18,201 bases of DNA from Candidatus Micrarchaeia archaeon (lineage in GTDB: Archaea; Micrarchaeota; Micrarchaeia; Micrarchaeales; CABMGC01), in contig JBMFWW010000003.1 in the NCBI GenBank assembly GCA_049964835.1, forward strand, positions 1-18,201, given 5' to 3'. Made by a program: the position numbers. Below, in pieces: positions 12,001 to 18,201 of this stretch; positions within the stretch are counted from its first letter, which is position 1, and each line of letters opens with the position of its first letter.

Positions 12001-15000
12001 CTACCTTTTACTCCAGGCTTTATTGCATGTATTGCTTTAAGCTGTGCCGATTTTACAGCCTTTATGATCTTTTCGTTTGCGGTGTAGTTTTTAGATTTGT
12101 CATTACCAAATATGAAAGTTCTGGTCATATCTGAACAGTAACCATCTACTTTCGCTCCCGCATCAATAAGTATTATGTCACCTTCGACTAACTTCGTATT
12201 GTCAGGCATATGATGTGGAAGTGCAGCATTTTTACCAAAACAAACTATTGTTGTAAATGAAGGCTTGGAGGAACCCAAAGATGCAGAGATATTATCAAAC
12301 TTTGCTGCAAGTTCCATCTCTGTCATTCCAAGCTTAAACTCCTTTGTAATTAAGACCATCGCCCACTTAGTTATGCTTACTGCTTTCTTTATTTTTTCTA
12401 TTTCTAAACTATCTTTTATAAGCCTTGATTTAGAGCATGCCAAAGATATATCCTTCGTTGCTTTAAAATAGTACCTTTTTTTAATTAGATTATATAATCC
12501 AACAGGTAAAAAGAATTCATTTATTCCTATTGTTTTATTCTTGAGCATTGAGGTAAGTTTAGTCCTAAATTTTGATTTAGAGTCCATTAATACTACTTCA
12601 AATTCTTTTGGAAGATTTTCTCTCGCAGTCTCATATTCTAGGGAAGATGTAAAAAGAGTTGCTTTTTTCTTTTCTAGAATTAAATAACTATACTCATAAA
12701 GTCCACTTGTTAAACCTGTTAGATAAAAAAAGTTTGGGTCTTGTGAATCAGTATTCATTAAAAGTATAACATCAACATCTGGAGCGTATGAAAAAATTTT
12801 TTTAATTCTTGACAAGGTATCTTTGTATTCCATCAATATCACAAAAGTAACTATAATATTACAATATTTTTATATATAAAATGCAATATATAATAGTTTT
12901 GATGCAAAATTTATACACTAACAAGAAAGATTCTGTTTACAAAAGGATGAAAGATCCAATATACCTTAAAAAATATTACAACTTCAAAACAATTGAACTT
13001 ATAAAAAACAATGAAATTTATGGATCTTCTCCTCCAGATCTTTTTGTTGGAAGAATTGGATACCCAGATGTTTATATTGGTCCGCTAGTCCCACCACAAT
13101 TAGGAGACACTTCAATAATGGGAACCCCAGAAAGATGGGCAAATAAAAGTATAACTGAAATAGTAGAAATGAGATCTTTACTTATAAGAGGTATGTATAG
13201 AACAAAGGTAACTAATCCTGATAAGGGGAGATTTGAAGAGCTAATTAAAGAAATAGCATTGTCAGATAAATTTGGTACTGTCGATATAAAATTAAAACAT
13301 ACACCTAAAAATTCTGTGAGATTAGATGAAAATACTCAACCTTTCGGACCTAGTGCGCCGATAACTGATATGCATATTTATGATATGAAAGCTAATAAAC
13401 AGATAGAAAATGCTTATTCAGATACTGCATTAAGTGCTACCGATGCAATGGTAGAGCTTTATGAAAAGGGATTAGAAGTCTCAAAAATACAAAAAGCGTT
13501 ATCTGCTGGATTGTTAGGTAGAAAAAATATGCGCAGGTTTGTTCCGACCAGATGGAGTATTACTGCTACTGATGACACACTATCAAAAAATAAATTATCA
13601 CGAATAAAAGAGATGGATACCTTTGATGGTTTTAGAGTTTATTACAATGTTGCGCTAGATAATAGATGGCTTATAATAATCATGCCAGGGATGTGGGAAT
13701 ATGAATCAATGGAGGCTTGGTATCCAGATACAGCTTGGAATAAATCTGGAAATGAAATTGAAATAGGTGCATCTTATGAACCTTTTGATGGAAGAAAAAC
13801 ATATGCAGAAATAGGTGGTTGCTACTATGCGGCAAGACTAGCAGTAAGCGAACTTCTTGAGAATGAAGAAAAACAAGGCAAGGTAATAATATTAAGGGAG
13901 GTACATCCAGGATACATAATGCCAGTAGGAGTTTGGAATGTAAGAGAACACGTAAGGGAAACGCTAAAAAAAGAACCAAAATATTTTAGTAGTATTTATG
14001 AGGCACTAGATTTTGCAGGAAAAAATCTTGAGATAAATATAAAGACATGGATTAGAAATAGTACTTTGCTTAAAAGAGTTATATACCAAAAAAGGCTATT
14101 TTAAATTAAGTGCATTGCTTCTCAAGAATAATAAAAAACATAAATTTGAAGAGTATTTTAGCTAAATAGATATAGTATTTTCTCTGCCACTAATTATTAT
14201 AAAAAATAATGTATCTTTCTTTTTATCGCCAAGTATTTGTAGTTCACAATTCTTTTCTGAAGGTATTTTGTAAAATTCTGCTGCACCTTCTTCACTAGTT
14301 AAACCGCTAAAAATAATCTCTTTTAAATAATAAACTCTTATTTTTTTGTATTTTATTGGATTTGAATTTTTATCTAAAATAATTATTAAGGTTCGAGTAA
14401 TATCATTTTTAAATTCTGTAACATAATTAAATTTCTTTTTTGGTAGATATGTATAAGGTTTTATGAATAATGAATTACCAACCTCTCTAAAGCCAGAATT
14501 ATTTTTTATAGGAGTTATTGCACAAGTACCGCTTTCTAACATCTTTAACTTTTCTACCACATCATCTGAATAAATTATTGGAAAGAGAAGATCATTAAAT
14601 GCCATTTTTGCCGAATCAGAACTTTGCCTAAAGTAAAACTTTAACTGACATAATCTACGTATTCTAAGATTTATGTCTGAAACGTTGTGTGTTATCAAAA
14701 ATAGGCCTATTCCCTTTTTCCTAAAATCCTGTATTCTTTGAAGCATATCGAAAGATGCAGCAGATTCATCATCATTAAATATTAACTGTGCTTCTTCTAA
14801 ACATATTAGCATACGTAAAGATTCATCTCCGTATATATCAAAAGTATCAGATAATCCATATATTTGATTTAGTATTAATGCATAAAAAAATGGTTTTAGT
14901 GTATTGCTGATTTTAAAAAGATTGAATACAACACCTTTTTTGAGAATACTATTAATATCTAAGCCGTCAGCGTAAGCGAATTGTGCTTTTTTTAACATTA

Positions 15001-18000
15001 AACGGAGTGGTTCTAATGCAGCAATTATATTTTCGCCATGTTTTGTCAGTTTTATCCCAGTAGAGGATATTTTTCCATGTCTTTCAACAACTTTATCAAA
15101 TATTTCTGAGTATACCATTTCTGGTTCTGGTTTTTTCGTTTTCTCATATATATTACTAAATGCACTAAGCAAACATTTTTCCATAGCGTTTTTATAAGGT
15201 CCAGAATTAGAAGCAGATGATATTAACATAGCCAAATTCTCGTAAAACTTTTCTATGTTTAAATTTTCCGGACAATTAAAAAATGATAATTTATTTTTGT
15301 CATCATATAATGTAATTATTTCAAGATTATTTTCAAGTGCAAAATTGTTCCATTCTTCAGTTGGAGATATTACAACTACAGGAGTTCTTGATTTTGATAA
15401 TATTTGACTTATTAAATACATTGAAGAGGATGTTTTACCGGTTCCTGGAACTCCAGTAACTAATGTGCCAAGATTAAACGCGTTTCTATTTGAAAAAATT
15501 TCTCTCTTAGTGTCCTTTATAGACCCCTCCAGACAAGTACCTATTGCTATATCACCAATGTATTCTGAAATTGGAGTATTTATTATTTTATTTTTTACTA
15601 ATGAATTTGAAAAAAATATTATAGACTCTAATCTTTTTTCTGAAAAAGGTATTATCATCATATTTTTGAAAGTTGAAAAATTTAAATTAACAGGAGAAGC
15701 TCTTACTGTACATGTTTTTATAAACATTACCTTTGATTTTAGATATGATATAATATCTGTGTTATTTCTTTCTACTGATATTAAAATATGATAAGAAGAG
15801 CTATTAGCTAAAATAATTTCATTTAACATGTTTAAGATTGAAGATGAAATATTTTTCTCGGCAGAGTTGTAGAATAACTCATATTGATTAGATTCGGTTC
15901 TAGAACCAAAACCAATACCAAAATTTATTTGATTACTTTTTTTAACTTCAATTATACTAAGTCTATTTTCAATTTCTTCTTTTAATGAAGATACTTTATT
16001 GCTATCTGATCGAATAAATAAGATTGACATAAATGTGTCTTTACCAGAAAAAAGTTCATATGCTTCAGTAAATAGCTCTTTTAACTGCTTTTTTTCATCA
16101 AAATTTAATTCGAAGTAAGGAGAAATCAGTAATAATTCCTTGTTATTTTTATTAAAATCAGTTTCAACCATTTTAAAACCTAATATCGAATTAACGAAAG
16201 TGTCTGAAGTGCTATTTTTATCTAATAATAAATAGGTTTTTGATTCTTTGAAATCGTGGTATAGTCCAAAGGACAAGCCAAGCATTGATTTTATAAATAT
16301 TGAATGATCTAATTTTTCTGGTAATTCTTGTATTAAAAAGATTCTTTGATTTTCCATAAATCATACCAAATAAACAAAAAGAACTACTAAAGACATTAAA
16401 AAAATATAATAAGTAAATTTCTTATCGAATAATAAAAAGTGCTTATTTTTTATTATAACATAAAATATAGGTGATGTAGCTCCGAGTATGAGTAAGTAGG
16501 CGTATATATTTTGATTTAAATAAATAAGAACAGATAACTCTGATATCAGAATATCTATCGACAAAATGCCTTTTGTAAATACATTGTTATTATTAAAATC
16601 AAAAAACTCTTTCATAATATCATCAGTATTTTAATAATTATTGAAAGTACTACAAAGGCTAAAAGACGGTCAATAAAAAATGTATGAACTTTTCTATTTT
16701 TAGAAAGTACTAAAGAAAATGAAGAAATAAGTGAAAAGATTCCAGCAATAACTCCAATTAAAATGCTTAAGAATTGCAATAGAAAATAAAAATGCATACC
16801 ATCATTTATTTAAAATATATATTATATTTGGATCTGAAAATGTACAGTTCCATAAAAGTAGAGAACCTAATTCATCACAGTTCAATAATTTTGAACAAAA
16901 AATTTCATTATTAAGAATAAGTATATTTGTATTATTATCACAGTAATACAGCTTTATTAATTTGTTATTTACAGTAGTATTATTGCAAGTAAAATTTTTA
17001 TAAATAACTGATAAATCAGAGTTTATTTTTGTTGTTATTATATCTCTTATTTTTTTAGAATTTGTTGAGAAATAATTGCCGAAATTTAGAAAGTTATCTG
17101 CATTTTTTAGTAGTATATTAATATCAGAAATATCGTTAAATGATAGTGTTTCATTTAGTTCGTAGACCTTTGAATTATTTGGAAGAATAAGCTTTTTTGA
17201 TTGCTTTATGTTTTCAAAATCTATTGAGGAGTATAATCTTATTGTTCTTTTTAAATAATTAAAAGATCTAATAATAAACATTATTATGATTCCGAAAATA
17301 ATTATTAAAAAATCAAGTATGTAAGAGGTCATTTATCCACCAAAATAAATTCTGACTGACTAAGCCACTTTACTTTAAAATCTTTTTGATTCAAATCTGA
17401 AAAGCATGATTTTAGCTTAGTTACATTTATCTTTAAATCAGTTGAAAGTTGGTTTATGTTTATTTTTCCATTGTACTTGAAAGATACATATTTACTCAAA
17501 ACCGATTCAAAAGTAGATTTGTAAAAAGATAAATCTGAACTTGTTTTTTTGTTTGACAAATTCAACTCTATTATTCTTTTTGAAAGTATAATCTCTGGAA
17601 CATCTATTTGTTTTTTAACTTCGCTAAATTTATTTTGAGCAGTATTATTCTTTTTGAAAGATTCAATTATGTAAGGATAAATGCTCTCAAACTTTACAGT
17701 GTAGATCTTAGACATATAACCGATTAATAAAAGTAGCCTATAAACTGACTCGTCATATAATGCTATTGGAAATTCATCGGCGTATGTGATTAAAGATATT
17801 TCTGACTTTGAGAGCTCAAGTGAAAAATAATAGCCCATAGAATTAGATTTTATTAGATAAATTAATTTTTGACCATCCTTAACTAATTCTAACGCCTTGT
17901 GATTAAAAATATGTGTTTTTACATCTGATAATGGGACCTTGCATTCAGCAGGTATCTGTATTCTAGAAAAAAAGTGCATATTTTTATACTTCATAAGAAC

Positions 18001-18201
18001 ACTCTTGTAAGGCATAAGCAAAGGAGTCTGCTATATCCTTTTCTTTTATTCCTAGAGCTCTCAATTCTGATAGAATTAAAAGCCTGTTTTGAGTTAATTT
18101 AATAAATTCTCTTATAAGAACATGTAATTCAATAGAATTATTTTGAGATATTCTTGTAATCAATTCTGAAGTATCAGAATTAGAGAACTTTTTAATTACC
18201 T

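What a model noticed while it worked through the whole genome (the two positions that open the first line are those of the whole stretch)
14162..18201. Third archaeal conjugation-like pilus system
C3:14162-21297 holds, on one strand, a VirB2/TrbC-like pilin (g00344), a 7-8-TM VirB6-like protein (g00343), a 2-TM protein (g00342), an uncalled CedB/VirB4-like ATPase gene cut by a run of N (C3:18479-19096), three small proteins and a 731-aa HerA/VirB4-like ATPase (g00338), with no relaxase, integrase or replication gene. I read it as a chromosomal, domesticated type-IV-secretion-like apparatus of the Ced/Ted kind that builds a conjugative-type pilus and moves DNA (or another polymer) between this host-dependent nano-archaeon and its partner. 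It would be the third such archaeal system, the first outside Thermoproteota and the first in DPANN, and a candidate for how Micrarchaeales take up h [...]
Evidence so far: g00344 model: signal helix + long helical hairpin (pLDDT 79, call 53); 18 of 24 aligned family members hit Pfam TrbC/VirB2 pilin (best E 4e-6) and 11 of 24 T4SS_pilin (best 2e-5); g00344 itself only E 0.038. g00343: AF2 model pLDDT 72; in a search of 48,161 PDB chains the only near-full-length matches among the top 50 are TrwI/VirB6 of R388 (7o3v_F, Z 7.8, 230 of 261 residues aligned, model 7-333, rank 10) and DotA (Z 7.7, 263 aligned). g00338: DUF87 and HerA_C over cut-off, VirB4-like CD1110 E 9e-7. tblastn of g00212 finds the uncalled ATPase at C3:18479-19096, beside N 18202-18469; the closed relative G018 has an intact 325-aa frame at that place and the same gene order pilin, VirB6-like,  The finding spans contig positions 14162 to 21297; this window holds only 14162 to 18201 of it. 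[...]
(Added by a program. Inside this text positions count along the whole contig: contig position 1 is position 1 of the stretch shown here. "Call 12" and the like, gene names such as g00115 and contig names such as C1 are that model's own, and its searches are not shown. The text may have been shortened before it was handed on; [...] marks where a part breaks off. The agent that wrote the report below was given it as the finding of a first reader that could run no searches.)

Follow-up and report, generated by a model that had tools for sequence, protein, structure and literature searches.

The report
Conjugation-like pilus machine in Micrarchaeota
The window holds the far half of a nine-gene chromosomal operon, conserved in these tiny host-dependent archaea, that most likely builds a conjugation-type pilus and channel related to the DNA-exchange systems of hot-spring archaea; it is a candidate for how such cells trade large molecules with a partner.

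Summary
Window 14162-18201 is the distal half of one tightly packed minus-strand operon (contig C3:14162-21297). Gene order: signal-peptide pilin, 7-8-TM protein, 2-TM protein, short ATPase, four small proteins (not three), 731-aa ATPase.

- **Conservation:** the operon is vertically conserved in the order. A four-gene core (pilin, polytopic protein, 2-TM protein, ATPase) recurs across the phylum Micrarchaeota.
- **Pilin:** the VirB2/TrbC assignment is reasonably supported. Pfam T4SS_pilin or TrbC matches most family members, and the family profile picks TrwL out of the R388 proteins.
- **Short ATPase:** it scores best against CedB and CedD and passes Pfam cut-offs for VirB4/TraG-type P-loop domains.
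- **731-aa ATPase:**
- **VirB6-like protein:** no sequence support. R388 TrwI/VirB6 is the best near-full-length fold match in three searches, at scores that are not decisive.
- **Context:** no relaxase or integrase, and no plasmid or phage relatives.
- **Not shown:** substrate, direction, expression and the pilus itself.

I read it as a third, Ced/Ted-like, domesticated type-IV-secretion-derived system. "First in DPANN" overstates: VirB4-like ATPases were already proposed as secretion parts in nanohaloarchaea.

The parts
14162..16357 (-). 731-aa ATPase (ATP731), last gene of the operon. N-terminal domain of about 280 aa, then a P-loop core with Walker A GVPGTGKT and Walker B-like CLEEAQ, then a C-terminal domain of about 130 aa. 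No TM segment. CedD-like.
   Evidence: Pfam DUF87 25.8 bits (cut-off 23.2) and HerA_C 24.5 bits (cut-off 22). In the family, 11 of 16 members match NCBIfam CedD (best 1.4e-11) and 7 of 16 match VirB4-like CD1110. Best PDB matches by profile are HerA-like chains, 4.5e-6. Found in 34 of 41 genomes of the order. A T-run follows about 30 nt after the stop.
16361..16615 (-). 84-aa membrane protein with 2-3 TM segments (p84). Possible membrane anchor for the TM-less ATPase (inferred).
   Evidence: A 69-111-aa ORF with 1-4 predicted TM segments sits at the same place in 9 of 13 syntenic loci. No Pfam or NCBIfam match.
16612..16797 (-). 61-aa two-helix hairpin protein with a basic loop (p61). Same build as small T4SS/Ced hairpin proteins, but no detectable homology.
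   Evidence: A 46-82-aa ORF at the same place in 13 of 13 syntenic loci, with two TM predicted in 10 of them; architecture conserved, sequence poorly so. No Pfam pilin hit. hhalign against the pilin family gives probability 0.1.
16802..17332 (-). 176-aa bitopic protein (p176). One N-terminal TM segment, then a domain with 5 Cys and 7 N-x-S/T sequons, so probably extracellular.
   Evidence: A 171-272-aa ORF with an N-terminal TM at the same place in 13 of 13 syntenic loci. Cys and sequon counts. No Pfam match in 14 members.
17329..18021 (-). Soluble protein of about 221-230 aa (p230). Alpha/beta N-terminal part, coiled coil, and a winged-helix-like C-terminus in part of the family. The true start is probably the ATG at 17994.
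   Evidence: A 207-263-aa ORF at the same place in 11 of 13 syntenic loci. Alignment A9. One member matches Pfam HTH_11 at 5e-4, below the cut-off. No PDB match beyond coiled coils.
17984..18201 (-). 3' end (71 codons) of the short CedB/VirB4-like ATPase gene. The gene runs on beyond the window to contig position 19096, through the N-run at 18202-18469.

The rest of the operon lies OUTSIDE the window, upstream on the same strand (contig C3 coordinates):
- 2-TM protein tm242, 19101-19829
- polytopic VirB6-like protein, 19829-20884
- VirB2/TrbC-type pilin, 20896-21297
   Evidence: **Short ATPase.** The frame stays open through the N-run at 370 codons, against 372/373 aa in the closest relatives. 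The N-terminal part passes Pfam cut-offs for DUF87 (41.9 bits), AAA_10 (38.5), P-loop_TraG (36.6) and TrwB_AAD_bind (26.1). Best NCBIfam match is CedB, 2.4e-16. In relatives: CedB 13 of 13, CedD 11 of 13, VirB4-type models 13 of 13.

**tm242 (outside the window).** Present in 13 of 13 syntenic loci and in 7 of the 11 loci of the second set, which span other families. No Pfam or PDB match.

**Polytopic protein (outside the window).** AF2 pLDDT 69.5. TrwI/VirB6 is the best near-full-length fold match. No sequence match.

**Pilin (outside the window).** Pfam T4SS_pilin in 12 of 14 members and TrbC in 11 of 14. The family profile picks TrwL of R388.

Best explanation
The window holds the distal half of a nine-gene operon for a minimal, chromosomally fixed machine derived from the type-IV-secretion (conjugation) apparatus. 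It is of the same kind as the archaeal Ced and Ted systems but a separate family.

Proposed working:
1. The pilin enters the membrane through Sec, and its signal peptide is removed.
2. The polytopic B6-like protein forms the membrane platform or channel.
3. The 2-TM protein ties the short CedB/VirB4-like ATPase to that platform.
4. The ATPase drives extraction of pilin from the membrane and its polymerisation into a conjugative-type pilus. It then drives passage of a polymer through the channel.
5. The window's own genes add a soluble, possibly DNA-binding protein; a bitopic extracellular protein; two small membrane proteins; and a second, CedD-like ATPase. That ATPase acts as a second motor, anchored by the small membrane proteins.

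By analogy with Ced and Ted, DNA is the most likely substrate. I put that at about one in two, given that the machine reading is right.

Shown here: gene content, order, conservation, pilin family, ATPase clade, chromosomal context.

Inferred: the VirB6 role, the assembly pathway, the roles of the four small proteins, and the substrate and its direction.
For: 1. **Pilin.** Pfam T4SS_pilin matches 12 of 14 family members and TrbC/VirB2 matches 11 of 14. These are the two commonest families by far. One member is over the curated cut-off, and a more distant one is exactly at it. My profile of the family finds the solved VirB2 pilin TrwL among 11 R388 proteins at 14.4 bits, against -0.5 for the next best. 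The build is signal peptide, helix, basic loop, helix. Atlas neighbours in the same phylum carry automatic TrbC/VirB2 names.
2. **Short ATPase.** It is over Pfam cut-offs for AAA_10, P-loop_TraG, TrwB_AAD_bind and DUF87. CedB matches 13 of 13 relatives (best 1.3e-23) and CedD 11 of 13 (best 7.9e-27). That is 8-10 orders of magnitude better than the HerA or VirB4 models.
3. **731-aa ATPase.** CedD is the commonest NCBIfam match, in 11 of 16 members. Ced needs both CedB and CedD (PMC11868833, abstract and passages).
4. **Polytopic protein.** The only near-full-length, low-rmsd matches among 48,161 chains are TrwI/VirB6 and DotA. TrwI chains take Foldseek ranks 2-3 of 350,542 chains, with the highest probability and TM-score. 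They take ranks 1-3 in the second look.
5. **Linkage.** Pilin and polytopic gene are adjacent in 10 of the 11 loci of the second set (9 from other families of the phylum, 2 from the window's own order). The four-gene order is kept in 6 of those 11. The two families co-occur by taxonomic family.
6. **Domesticated, not mobile.** Flanks are housekeeping genes. Identity falls with taxonomic distance. tblastn finds nothing in 72,556 plasmids for the big ATPase or the polytopic protein, and nothing in 50,697 phages for either ATPase. Nothing in viral contigs for the polytopic protein.
Against: - **No sequence evidence for VirB6 or CedA.** No Pfam family recurs in 14 close or 90 diverse members. There are no PDB sequence hits. 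hhalign against a TrwI family gives probability 0.1-0.2.
- **Fold scores are not decisive.** Z 8-9 lies in the range the tool calls common for helical proteins, and no Foldseek E-value is below 0.25.
- **The published pilin-to-channel N-terminal homology (CedA1/CedA) is not seen here.** Probability 0.3.
- **The ATPases match HerA repair and anti-phage models almost as well as VirB4 models**. They are far below every equivalog cut-off: about 60 bits against 700 for CedB.
- **The window genome's own pilin reaches only E 0.036 on TrbC**.
- **The big ATPase is separable.** It is missing from 7 of 41 genomes, and it lacks the four upstream genes in 15 of 52 loci.
- **No expression data, no pilus observed, no DNA-processing gene in the operon.** Adjacency to Nre (20 of 76 loci) and Hjc (3 of 80) is too patchy to argue for DNA.
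Confidence: 0.62

Rival explanations
1. Same T4SS-derived machine, but its task is the symbiosis itself, not DNA exchange. It would be a pilus or conduit for attaching to the host and taking up or delivering proteins, lipids, nucleotides or other molecules, as proposed for the essential T4SS of the epibiotic Patescibacteria.
For: The organism is a reduced-genome micrarchaeon of 0.8 Mb. The polytopic family is expanded to 7 copies in this genome. Pilin genes stand in tandem arrays in other orders, like the six-pilin array of Saccharibacteria (PMC12857230, passages). There is no relaxase or coupling protein. Links to DNA-repair genes are patchy. The tube and docking barrel seen between ARM-1 and its host have no assigned proteins (PMC11329633, passages).
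Against: The nearest characterised relatives of both ATPases are the DNA-import proteins CedB and CedD. The operon is missing from some lineages of the order that are presumably just as host-dependent: 7 of 41 genomes lack the big ATPase, and several genomes have only paralogues of the polytopic protein. No effector-like or adhesin gene lies in the operon.
Confidence: 0.25
2. Not a secretion or pilus system at all. It would be a lineage-specific membrane complex driven by HerA/FtsK-type ATPases, for instance for chromosome handling at division, repair, or envelope biogenesis. On this reading, the small hairpin protein resembles VirB2 only through hydrophobic composition.
For: HerA-type structures head the PDB profile hits of both ATPases. 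Public records name them HerA-like or DUF87. The Mia14 paper's tables file such genes as "HerA helicase" in the repair group: arCOG00280, 3 copies in Mia14, present in 15 of 15 DPANN genomes (PMC5498576, supplement file 5). There is no sequence signal for VirB6. The T4SS_pilin model rings weakly in 11 of 14 control genomes at E<=10.
Against: Two independent pilin models hit most family members. The reverse search singles out a solved VirB2. The pilin carries a cleavable signal peptide and a conserved glycosylation sequon, which points to an exported protein. TrwI is the top full-length fold match of the adjacent gene in three searches. The short ATPase passes the cut-offs of the VirB4/TraG-type Pfam domains.
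Confidence: 0.1
3. Decayed remnant of an integrated conjugative element or virus that the lineage happens to keep.
For: The cluster's G+C is 0.276 against 0.32 for the genome, at the first percentile of 7-kb windows. A tRNA-Pro gene lies 2.4 kb from the operon's end. The Mia14 paper speaks of membrane-protein-rich islands as likely conjugative elements (PMC5498576, passages).
Against: All nine frames are open and tightly packed. The same order and partly the same flanks (Nre) recur across two families of the order. There is no integrase, relaxase or replication gene. tblastn finds no plasmid or phage relative of the big ATPase, no plasmid or viral-contig relative of the polytopic protein, and no phage relative of the short ATPase; the short ATPase has 4 weak plasmid hits.
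Confidence: 0.03

Closest known systems
Ced system of Sulfolobales (CedA, CedA1, CedA2, CedB, plus CedD and CedE)
   Same: Chromosomal, with no relaxase. A small two-helix pilin, a polytopic VirB6-like protein, and two HerA/VirB4-clade ATPases. Here the short ATPase scores best on CedB and CedD, and the big ATPase's family scores best on CedD. Small two-TM proteins are present.
   Different: All scores are far below the equivalog cut-offs (about 60 bits against 700), so these are not orthologues. The pilin here has a cleavable signal peptide, whereas Ced pilins are reported as unprocessed (PMC9905601, passages). The ATPases here lack TM segments, and separate 2-TM and small TM proteins lie beside them. 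All genes form one operon. No pilin-like N-terminus was detected in the polytopic protein. The phylum is a different one, in DPANN.
Ted system of Thermoproteales (TedA, TedB, TedC)
   Same: A pilin with a signal peptide cleaved by signal peptidase I, next to a VirB6/CedA-like gene, with a VirB4-like ATPase nearby. Domesticated and chromosomal (PMC9905601, passages).
   Different: No Ted profiles were on hand, so homology was not tested. Here there is a second ATPase and four further conserved small genes. No Rad50/HerA/ParA neighbours.
T4SS of Patescibacteria (MPF-FATA-like, with VirB2-like pilin arrays)
   Same: An ultrasmall, host-dependent monoderm organism. Chromosomal T4SS without a relaxase. 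VirB2-like pilins, which stand in arrays in other Micrarchaeota orders. Multiple VirB6-like genes. (PMC12102498 and PMC12857230, abstracts and passages.)
   Different: The bacterial system keeps recognisable VirB1, B3, B6, B8 and D4 homologues and a full-length VirB4. None of these is recognisable here. The archaeal ATPases are nearer to the Ced and HerA clades.
VirB4/TraG-like ATPases beside the giant SPEARE proteins of nanohaloarchaea
   Same: DPANN archaea with VirB4-like ATPases proposed to be part of a type-IV secretion system used on the host (PMC10266531, passages).
   Different: Those loci were described with giant adhesin-ATPase fusions and no pilin or VirB6-like gene. Here there is a pilin, a polytopic protein and two stand-alone ATPases.
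Archaeal conjugative plasmids and integrated elements (pNOB8 type, pT33-3, Nitrososphaeria ICEs)
   Same: VirB4-clade ATPase with membrane proteins in archaea.
   Different: Those carry a VirD4-like coupling protein and are mobile. No pilin was recognised in the plasmids (PMC9905601 introduction; PMC12857230). Here there is no VirD4 and no mobility genes, and inheritance is vertical.

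Membership tests
VirB2/TrbC conjugative pilin superfamily (Pfam PF04956 TrbC, PF18895 T4SS_pilin) | Match to the family profile at the curated cut-off | tested here: inconclusive
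   Own protein: TrbC 14.7 bits against a cut-off of 27.9, E 0.036. Among 13 relatives in the order, 11 match T4SS_pilin at E<=0.01, one is over the cut-off (30.4 against 26.6) and two fall within 0.4 bits of it. One distant relative scores exactly the TrbC cut-off of 27.9. At E<=0.1, 12 of 14 members match T4SS_pilin and 11 of 14 match TrbC.
VirB2/TrbC conjugative pilin superfamily | Build: signal peptide, two hydrophobic helices, short basic loop; about 70-100 residues when mature | tested here: met
   Alignment A1 shows a hydrophobic leader ending in small residues, the helix IGPxLSAVLFIxAGIFYAxGQL, the loop PPDKRANFH, and the helix AINIIIGAIVVAVLSVAS. The family profile picks TrwL/VirB2 of R388 at 14.4 bits; the next of 11 proteins scores -0.5.
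VirB2/TrbC conjugative pilin superfamily | Forms a lipid-bearing helical pilus | not testable with these tools
   Needs purified filaments and cryo-EM.
VirB6/TrbL (Pfam PF04610) and CedA/TedA channel proteins | Sequence-profile match | tested here: not met
   No TrbL/VirB6 hit in 14 close or 90 diverse members. hhalign against a 23-sequence TrwI family gives probability 0.1-0.2. NCBIfam gives nothing. The Pfam 38.1 CedA1 model (PF27251) is not in the library on hand. It appears only as an Atlas lead, on 23% of one neighbouring cluster at score 0.90.
VirB6/TrbL and CedA/TedA channel proteins | Shared fold over most of the protein | tested here: inconclusive
   Model pLDDT 69.5. TrwI: Z 8.1, rmsd 6.2, 239 of 261 residues aligned, rank 10 of 48,161, where the top Z is 8.4 on a 129-residue match. 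Foldseek ranks 2-3, probability 0.72 and 0.63, E 0.36 and 0.43. Z 9.3, 8.6 and 8.3 at ranks 1-3 of 468; the next is 7.8 on 56 residues. The tool warns that Z under about 13 can be a common arrangement in helical proteins.
VirB6/TrbL and CedA/TedA channel proteins | Encoded next to the pilin and the VirB4-like ATPase | tested here: met
   Adjacent to the pilin in 13 of 13 syntenic loci of the order and in 10 of the 11 loci of the second set, which spans other families of the phylum.
VirB4-type T4SS ATPase | P-loop domain of the VirB4/TraG/TraC type at curated cut-offs | tested here: met
   N-terminal 209 residues of the short ATPase: AAA_10 38.5 bits against 27.5, P-loop_TraG 36.6 against 25.8, TrwB_AAD_bind 26.1 against 20.5, DUF87 41.9 against 23.2. 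These families overlap, so this places the protein in the clan, not in VirB4 proper.
VirB4-type T4SS ATPase | VirB4 equivalog score and VirB4-type N-terminal domain | tested here: not met
   TIGR00929 matches 11 of 13 relatives at best 9.1e-14; member 1 scores 28.5 bits against a cut-off of 643. HerA models score alike. The short ATPase has no long N-terminal domain.
Ced system (NCBIfam CedB NF041017, CedD NF053655) | Equivalog-level match to CedB and CedD | tested here: not met
   CedB 59.5-60.2 bits against 700. CedD best E 7.9e-27 for the short ATPase family and 1.4e-11 for the big one, far under the 600-bit cut-off. They are the best-scoring models, not orthologues.
Conjugative plasmid or integrative conjugative element | Relaxase, VirD4-type coupling protein, integrase or replication genes nearby; mobile distribution | tested here: not met
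   None among the ORFs of C3:1-30000 scanned with Pfam. Synteny and flanks are conserved. tblastn finds no plasmid or phage relative of the big ATPase, no plasmid or viral-contig relative of the polytopic protein, and no phage relative of the short ATPase (4 weak plasmid hits).
HerA-NurA type DNA-repair helicase | HerA equivalog score and a NurA/Mre11/Rad50 neighbourhood | tested here: not met
   HerA models hit at 1e-9 to 1e-16, far under cut-offs of 800-970 bits. The neighbours are membrane proteins, not NurA, Mre11 or Rad50.

The most novel reading that the evidence does not exclude
This is the DPANN counterpart of the essential Patescibacteria T4SS. It would be a phylum-wide, pilus-forming conduit through which Micrarchaeota obtain DNA, nucleotides or other macromolecules from their hosts.

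The pilin-bearing operon studied here and the pilin-less, six-fold VirB6-like cluster on contig C1 would be two specialised versions of it. One of them may build the unidentified docking barrel or the filaments seen by cryo-tomography at the ARM-1/host contact.

The split design would be a new way of assembling the VirB4 motor. In it, a short ATPase works with a separate 2-TM adaptor, and a TM-less CedD-like ATPase works with separate small membrane proteins.
Probability: 0.2. Interest if true: 0.9.

Novelty: new variant of a known kind. Interest (0 to 1): 0.7.

Why it matters
Only two domesticated conjugation-like systems are described in archaea, Ced and Ted, and both are in Thermoproteota.

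A third family would show that this machinery was retained or recruited repeatedly in archaea. It is fixed in the chromosome of a DPANN phylum, and its membrane component is expanded to 7 copies in this 0.8-Mb genome, with typically 6-14 matches per genome in other orders of the phylum.

It also gives a concrete, testable set of genes for an open question: how ultrasmall symbiotic archaea exchange macromolecules with their hosts. Three cultured co-cultures exist in which pilus identity, expression and localisation can be tested: Mia14, A_DKE and ARM-1. Mia14 carries the operon (locus L025).

My ten searches of the paper library found no description of this cluster. Public records call its parts hypothetical, DUF87 or HerA-like. 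Some pilin relatives already carry automatic TrbC/VirB2 names.

Tried and rejected
Its N-terminal and C-terminal domains, tm242, p176 and p230 therefore remain unfolded.
- Complex prediction for tm242 with the short ATPase: tool not available, nothing folded. This left untested my idea that the two together equal one CedB or VirB3-VirB4.

**Searches that found nothing useful**
- Sequencing runs: none was listed, and no RNA holder was listed.
- Bacterial promoter and terminator scan: no more sites than in shuffles, and not suited to an archaeon.
- Pfam on 40 members of the tm242, p230 and p176 families, and on 22 members of the p61 and p84 families: nothing recurrent.
- PDB profile searches of the pilin, B6-like, p230 and tm242 families: nothing, or coiled-coil noise only.
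- The T4SS_pilin model searched over the whole genome at E<=10 rings only at the pilin gene. The same loose search rings in 11 of 14 control genomes, so I give it little weight.

**Profile-profile comparisons with no signal (probability 0.1-0.3)**
- Pilin against B6-like.
- tm242 against the big ATPase.
- p61 against the pilin.
- B6-like against TrwI. The best local alignment was not significant. It put the conserved LPxGIxLRxFYPTR stretch (residues 186-214) on the conserved GPxFIxxLxWQPTxRF stretch of TrwI (167-195), at the same relative place. I record it as a curiosity, not as evidence.

**Ideas rejected**
- DNA-repair neighbours as a clue to the substrate: Nre is adjacent in only 20 of 76 loci, and Hjc is present in 3 of 80.
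- I recalled that the ARM-1 genome paper described a DPANN-wide secretion-like cluster. The text holds no occurrence of secretion, ATPase or pili (PMC8784108), so the recollection was wrong.

**Not established**
- The family's range outside Micrarchaeota. The large-library search returns no taxonomy, and genome searches were confined to the phylum.

Those genes are now described inside the last in-window part.

Full report
**What is there.** The window is G000:C3:1-18201. Between 14162 and 18201 all long frames lie on the minus strand:
- a 731-aa ATPase (14162-16357)
- ORFs of 84, 61, 176 and 230 aa
- the last 71 codons of another ATPase gene, which runs off the window

Reading on along the contig, a 268-base N-run (18202-18469) lies inside that gene. 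The frame stays open through the run to 19096, giving 370 codons. The two closest intact relatives have 372 and 373 aa. So the gene is probably whole, and the Ns replace sequence.

Upstream follow a 242-aa protein with two N-terminal TM segments (19101-19829), a 351-aa polytopic protein (19829-20884) and a 133-aa protein (20896-21297). Gaps between the nine genes are -38 to +11 nt. A T-run follows the last stop. It is therefore one operon, and the window holds its distal half.

**Context.** The flanks are ordinary chromosomal genes. On one side lie seryl-tRNA synthetase, aRF1, a radical-SAM enzyme, methyltransferase, M24 peptidase and Nre. On the other lie Hjc, a YgjP-like peptidase and an S-layer protein. 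No relaxase, integrase or replication gene is present. Two tRNA genes lie in the window.

The cluster's G+C is 0.276, against 0.32 for the genome. That is the first percentile of 7-kb windows.

**The organism.** Relatives of the big ATPase found in genome contigs are labelled Candidatus Micrarchaeota, Micrarchaeia or Micrarchaeaceae, or "uncultured archaeon", in 77 of the 80 loci kept. Two are labelled Marsarchaeota and one Acidiferrales. One orthologue of the polytopic protein is named from Candidatus Mancarchaeum acidiphilum, on a 952,257-base contig. So the cultured strain Mia14 carries the operon (locus L025).

**Conservation.**
- The big ATPase is found in 34 of 41 genomes sampled from the order, at 31-53% identity falling with taxonomic distance. 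One of the 34 is the unpublished G038.
- In 13 of 15 loci fetched, the order is pilin-like gene, polytopic gene, 2-TM gene, short ATPase, then the big ATPase.
- By position, the small genes are kept too: a soluble 207-263-aa ORF in 11 of 13 loci, a bitopic 171-272-aa ORF in 13 of 13, a 46-82-aa ORF in 13 of 13 (two TM predicted in 10) and a 69-111-aa ORF with 1-4 predicted TM in 9 of 13.
- In the larger set of 80 loci, 52 have at least 6.5 kb of upstream DNA. Of these, 37 show the four upstream genes in order and 15 do not.
- In G013 the first eight genes stay together, while the big ATPase lies about 310 kb away. G039 has no big ATPase. So the big ATPase is a separable addition.

**Across the phylum.**
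- The polytopic family occurs in 135 of 151 genomes.
- The pilin family occurs in 124 of 151 genomes, in tandem arrays in several. Both counts include G038.
- The same taxonomic families lack both.
- In the 11 loci of the second set (9 from other families of the phylum, 2 from the window's own order), the pilin gene is adjacent to a polytopic gene in 10. The order pilin, polytopic, 2-TM, ATPase is kept in 6.
- A profile search of 1.84 billion representatives finds 2,123 clusters of the polytopic family at E<=0.001.

This genome also has a paralogous, pilin-less cluster on C1:192257-203514. It holds six tandem polytopic genes, two 2-TM genes and a 504-aa ATPase.

**The pilin.** The family alignment shows four parts:
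- a hydrophobic leader ending in small residues
- a first hydrophobic helix
- a basic loop (PPDKRANFH)
- a second hydrophobic helix, followed by a conserved N-x-T sequon

Pfam T4SS_pilin matches 12 of 14 members (best 4.1e-7) and TrbC/VirB2 matches 11 of 14 (best 4.1e-5). No other family matches more than two. Per member, one relative is over the T4SS_pilin cut-off (30.4 against 26.6 bits). A distant relative scores exactly the TrbC cut-off. The window genome's own protein reaches only E 0.036.

In the reverse direction, a profile of the family picks TrwL, the solved VirB2 pilin of R388. It scores 14.4 bits; the next of 11 R388 proteins scores -0.5. Atlas neighbours in the same phylum are automatically named TrbC/VirB2. 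I take the pilin assignment as reasonably supported.

**The ATPases.** The N-terminal 209 residues of the short ATPase pass the Pfam cut-offs of DUF87, AAA_10, P-loop_TraG and TrwB_AAD_bind. Its best NCBIfam model is CedB, at 2.4e-16.

In 13 intact relatives:
- CedB matches 13 (best 1.3e-23).
- CedD matches 11 (best 7.9e-27).
- VirB4-type models match 13 (best 8.3e-17).
- HerA models match 11-13 (best 6.1e-16).
- All are far below the equivalog cut-offs.

By profile against the PDB, HerA-like chains lead and a VirB4 domain follows at 6.3e-12.

The big ATPase passes the DUF87 and HerA_C cut-offs. In its family, CedD is the commonest NCBIfam match (11 of 16, best 1.4e-11), ahead of VirB4-like CD1110 (7 of 16).

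CedD is the recently described second ATPase of the Ced system. It is needed for DNA import, and its N-terminal domain is said to complement that of CedB into a VirB4-like whole (PMC11868833, abstract and passages). The pairing of a CedB-like and a CedD-like ATPase in one operon strengthens the Ced-like reading.

**The polytopic protein.** Sequence methods give nothing:
- No recurrent Pfam family in 14 close or 90 diverse members.
- No PDB sequence match.
- hhalign probability of 0.1-0.2 against a 23-sequence family of TrwI/VirB6 built from R388.
- The published pilin-like N-terminus of CedA is not seen.

An AF2 model (pLDDT 69.5, pTM 0.58) gives three concordant but weak fold results:
- Among 48,161 chains, TrwI/VirB6 (Z 8.1, rmsd 6.2, 239 of 261 residues) and DotA (Z 7.5, 270 residues) are the only near-full-length, low-rmsd rows. 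The top Z is 8.4, on a 129-residue match.
- Foldseek finds no match at E<=0.001. It does place two TrwI chains at ranks 2-3 of 350,542, with the highest probability (0.72, 0.63) and TM-scores.
- The second look puts three TrwI chains at ranks 1-3 (Z 9.3, 8.6, 8.3). The next row is Z 7.8 on 56 residues.

The tool itself warns that such Z values are common for helical proteins. The Atlas lists a neighbouring cluster in which 23% of members carry the newer Pfam CedA1 family (score 0.90). That is a lead I could not test. I call the VirB6/CedA role likely from context and fold, but not shown.

**The window's small genes.** None has a known family.
- p230 is soluble, with a coiled coil and, in part of the family, a winged-helix-like C-terminus.
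- p176 has one TM segment and a Cys- and sequon-rich domain, hence probably extracellular.
- p61 is a two-helix hairpin with a basic loop.
- p84 has 2-3 TM segments.

I infer that p61 and p84 anchor the TM-less big ATPase, and that tm242 anchors the short one. CedB and CedD carry their own TM segments.

**Not mobile.** tblastn finds no relative of the big ATPase or the polytopic protein in 72,556 plasmids. It finds four weak hits for the short ATPase, among them VirB4-like and TraG-family conjugative-transposon ATPases. It finds no relative of either ATPase in 50,697 phages, and a scan of viral contigs finds no relative of the polytopic protein.

**What it most likely does.** The best reading is a minimal, domesticated type-IV-secretion-derived apparatus of the Ced/Ted kind but of its own family (confidence about 0.6). 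The substrate is open.
- The Ced-like ATPases point to DNA.
- The host-dependent lifestyle, the expansion of the membrane component and the pilin arrays recall the essential T4SS of Patescibacteria. They point to a symbiosis conduit (PMC12102498 and PMC12857230, passages).
- Adjacency to DNA-repair genes is too patchy to help: Nre in 20 of 76 loci, Hjc in 3 of 80.

**Literature.** I ran ten searches. I read passages of twelve papers and the abstracts of three of them. I also ran a term search over the supplementary files of one.

None describes a pilin, VirB6-like and VirB4-like cluster in Micrarchaeota. "Ced system" together with "Micrarchaeota" occurs in no paper held.

Related statements do exist:
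- VirB4/TraG-like ATPases next to the giant SPEARE proteins of nanohaloarchaea were proposed as type-IV secretion parts (PMC10266531).
- The Mia14 paper speaks of membrane-protein-rich islands as likely conjugative elements (PMC5498576). In its supplement it files the ATPases as HerA helicase and records no VirB4 in Mia14.
- The ARM-1 cryo-tomography papers leave the tube and the docking barrel without assigned proteins.

The library lacks most subscription journals, so a description elsewhere cannot be excluded.

Noticed in passing
G000 contig C1:192257-203514 (+), outside the window: Paralogous, pilin-less cluster right after a ribosomal-protein operon. It holds six tandem polytopic B6-like genes (370-510 aa, same PTRxxGG motif), two tm242-like 2-TM genes (280 and 274 aa), a 504-aa CedB-like ATPase and a 98-aa protein resembling that ATPase's C-terminal repeats. 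ORFs of 109, 241 and 784 aa follow. The six tandem copies recall the VirB6 arrays of Rickettsiales.
   Followed up: partly
G000 contig C13:18081-18551 (-), outside the window: A second pilin-like ORF of 156 aa: signal peptide ending ANAQ, two hydrophobic helices, and a Gly/Thr-rich tail. It is a weak hit to my pilin profile (E 4.4e-4). A 243-aa polytopic ORF follows it, near the contig end.
   Followed up: no
contig C3:18202-18469, just past the window's end: The 268-base N-run inside the short ATPase gene preserves both the reading frame and the expected protein length. It looks like replaced sequence rather than an assembly break.
   Followed up: partly
window 14000-18000: G+C falls to 0.22-0.27 over the small, poorly conserved genes of the operon, against 0.32 for the genome. 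The whole cluster sits at the first percentile of 7-kb windows, although it is vertically inherited.
   Followed up: partly
loci in other Micrarchaeota orders, e.g. G135:C37:304-1461, G110:C3:27090-28168, G071:C4:6819-7960, G113:C1:335753-336412: Tandem arrays of two to four pilin-family genes, reminiscent of the six-pilin array reported for Saccharibacteria.
   Followed up: no
G000 contig C8:1103-2767 (-): A further DUF87/HerA-clade ATPase (554 aa) with a long C-terminal extension. A 274-aa ORF I did not scan lies directly upstream on the same strand (C8:2814-3638). Not part of the cluster.
   Followed up: no
short ATPase C-terminus (window 17984-18199) and C1:203218-203514: Repeated helical motif of the form L-x-x-L-G-h-x-x-x-x-I, in the C-terminal tails of both short ATPases and in a separate 98-aa protein. 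No known family; it could bind DNA or another protein.
   Followed up: no
window 1-906 (-), 2948-3613 (+), 4970-5371 (-), 5596-6285 (-): Four ORFs of 133-302 aa with no Pfam family at E<=1e-5, among otherwise housekeeping genes.
   Followed up: no
B6-like residues 186-214 versus R388 TrwI residues 167-195: The best hhalign local alignment, which is not significant, lines up the most conserved motif of each family at the same relative position. Invariant Pro falls on invariant Pro, and conserved Thr on conserved Thr.
   Followed up: partly
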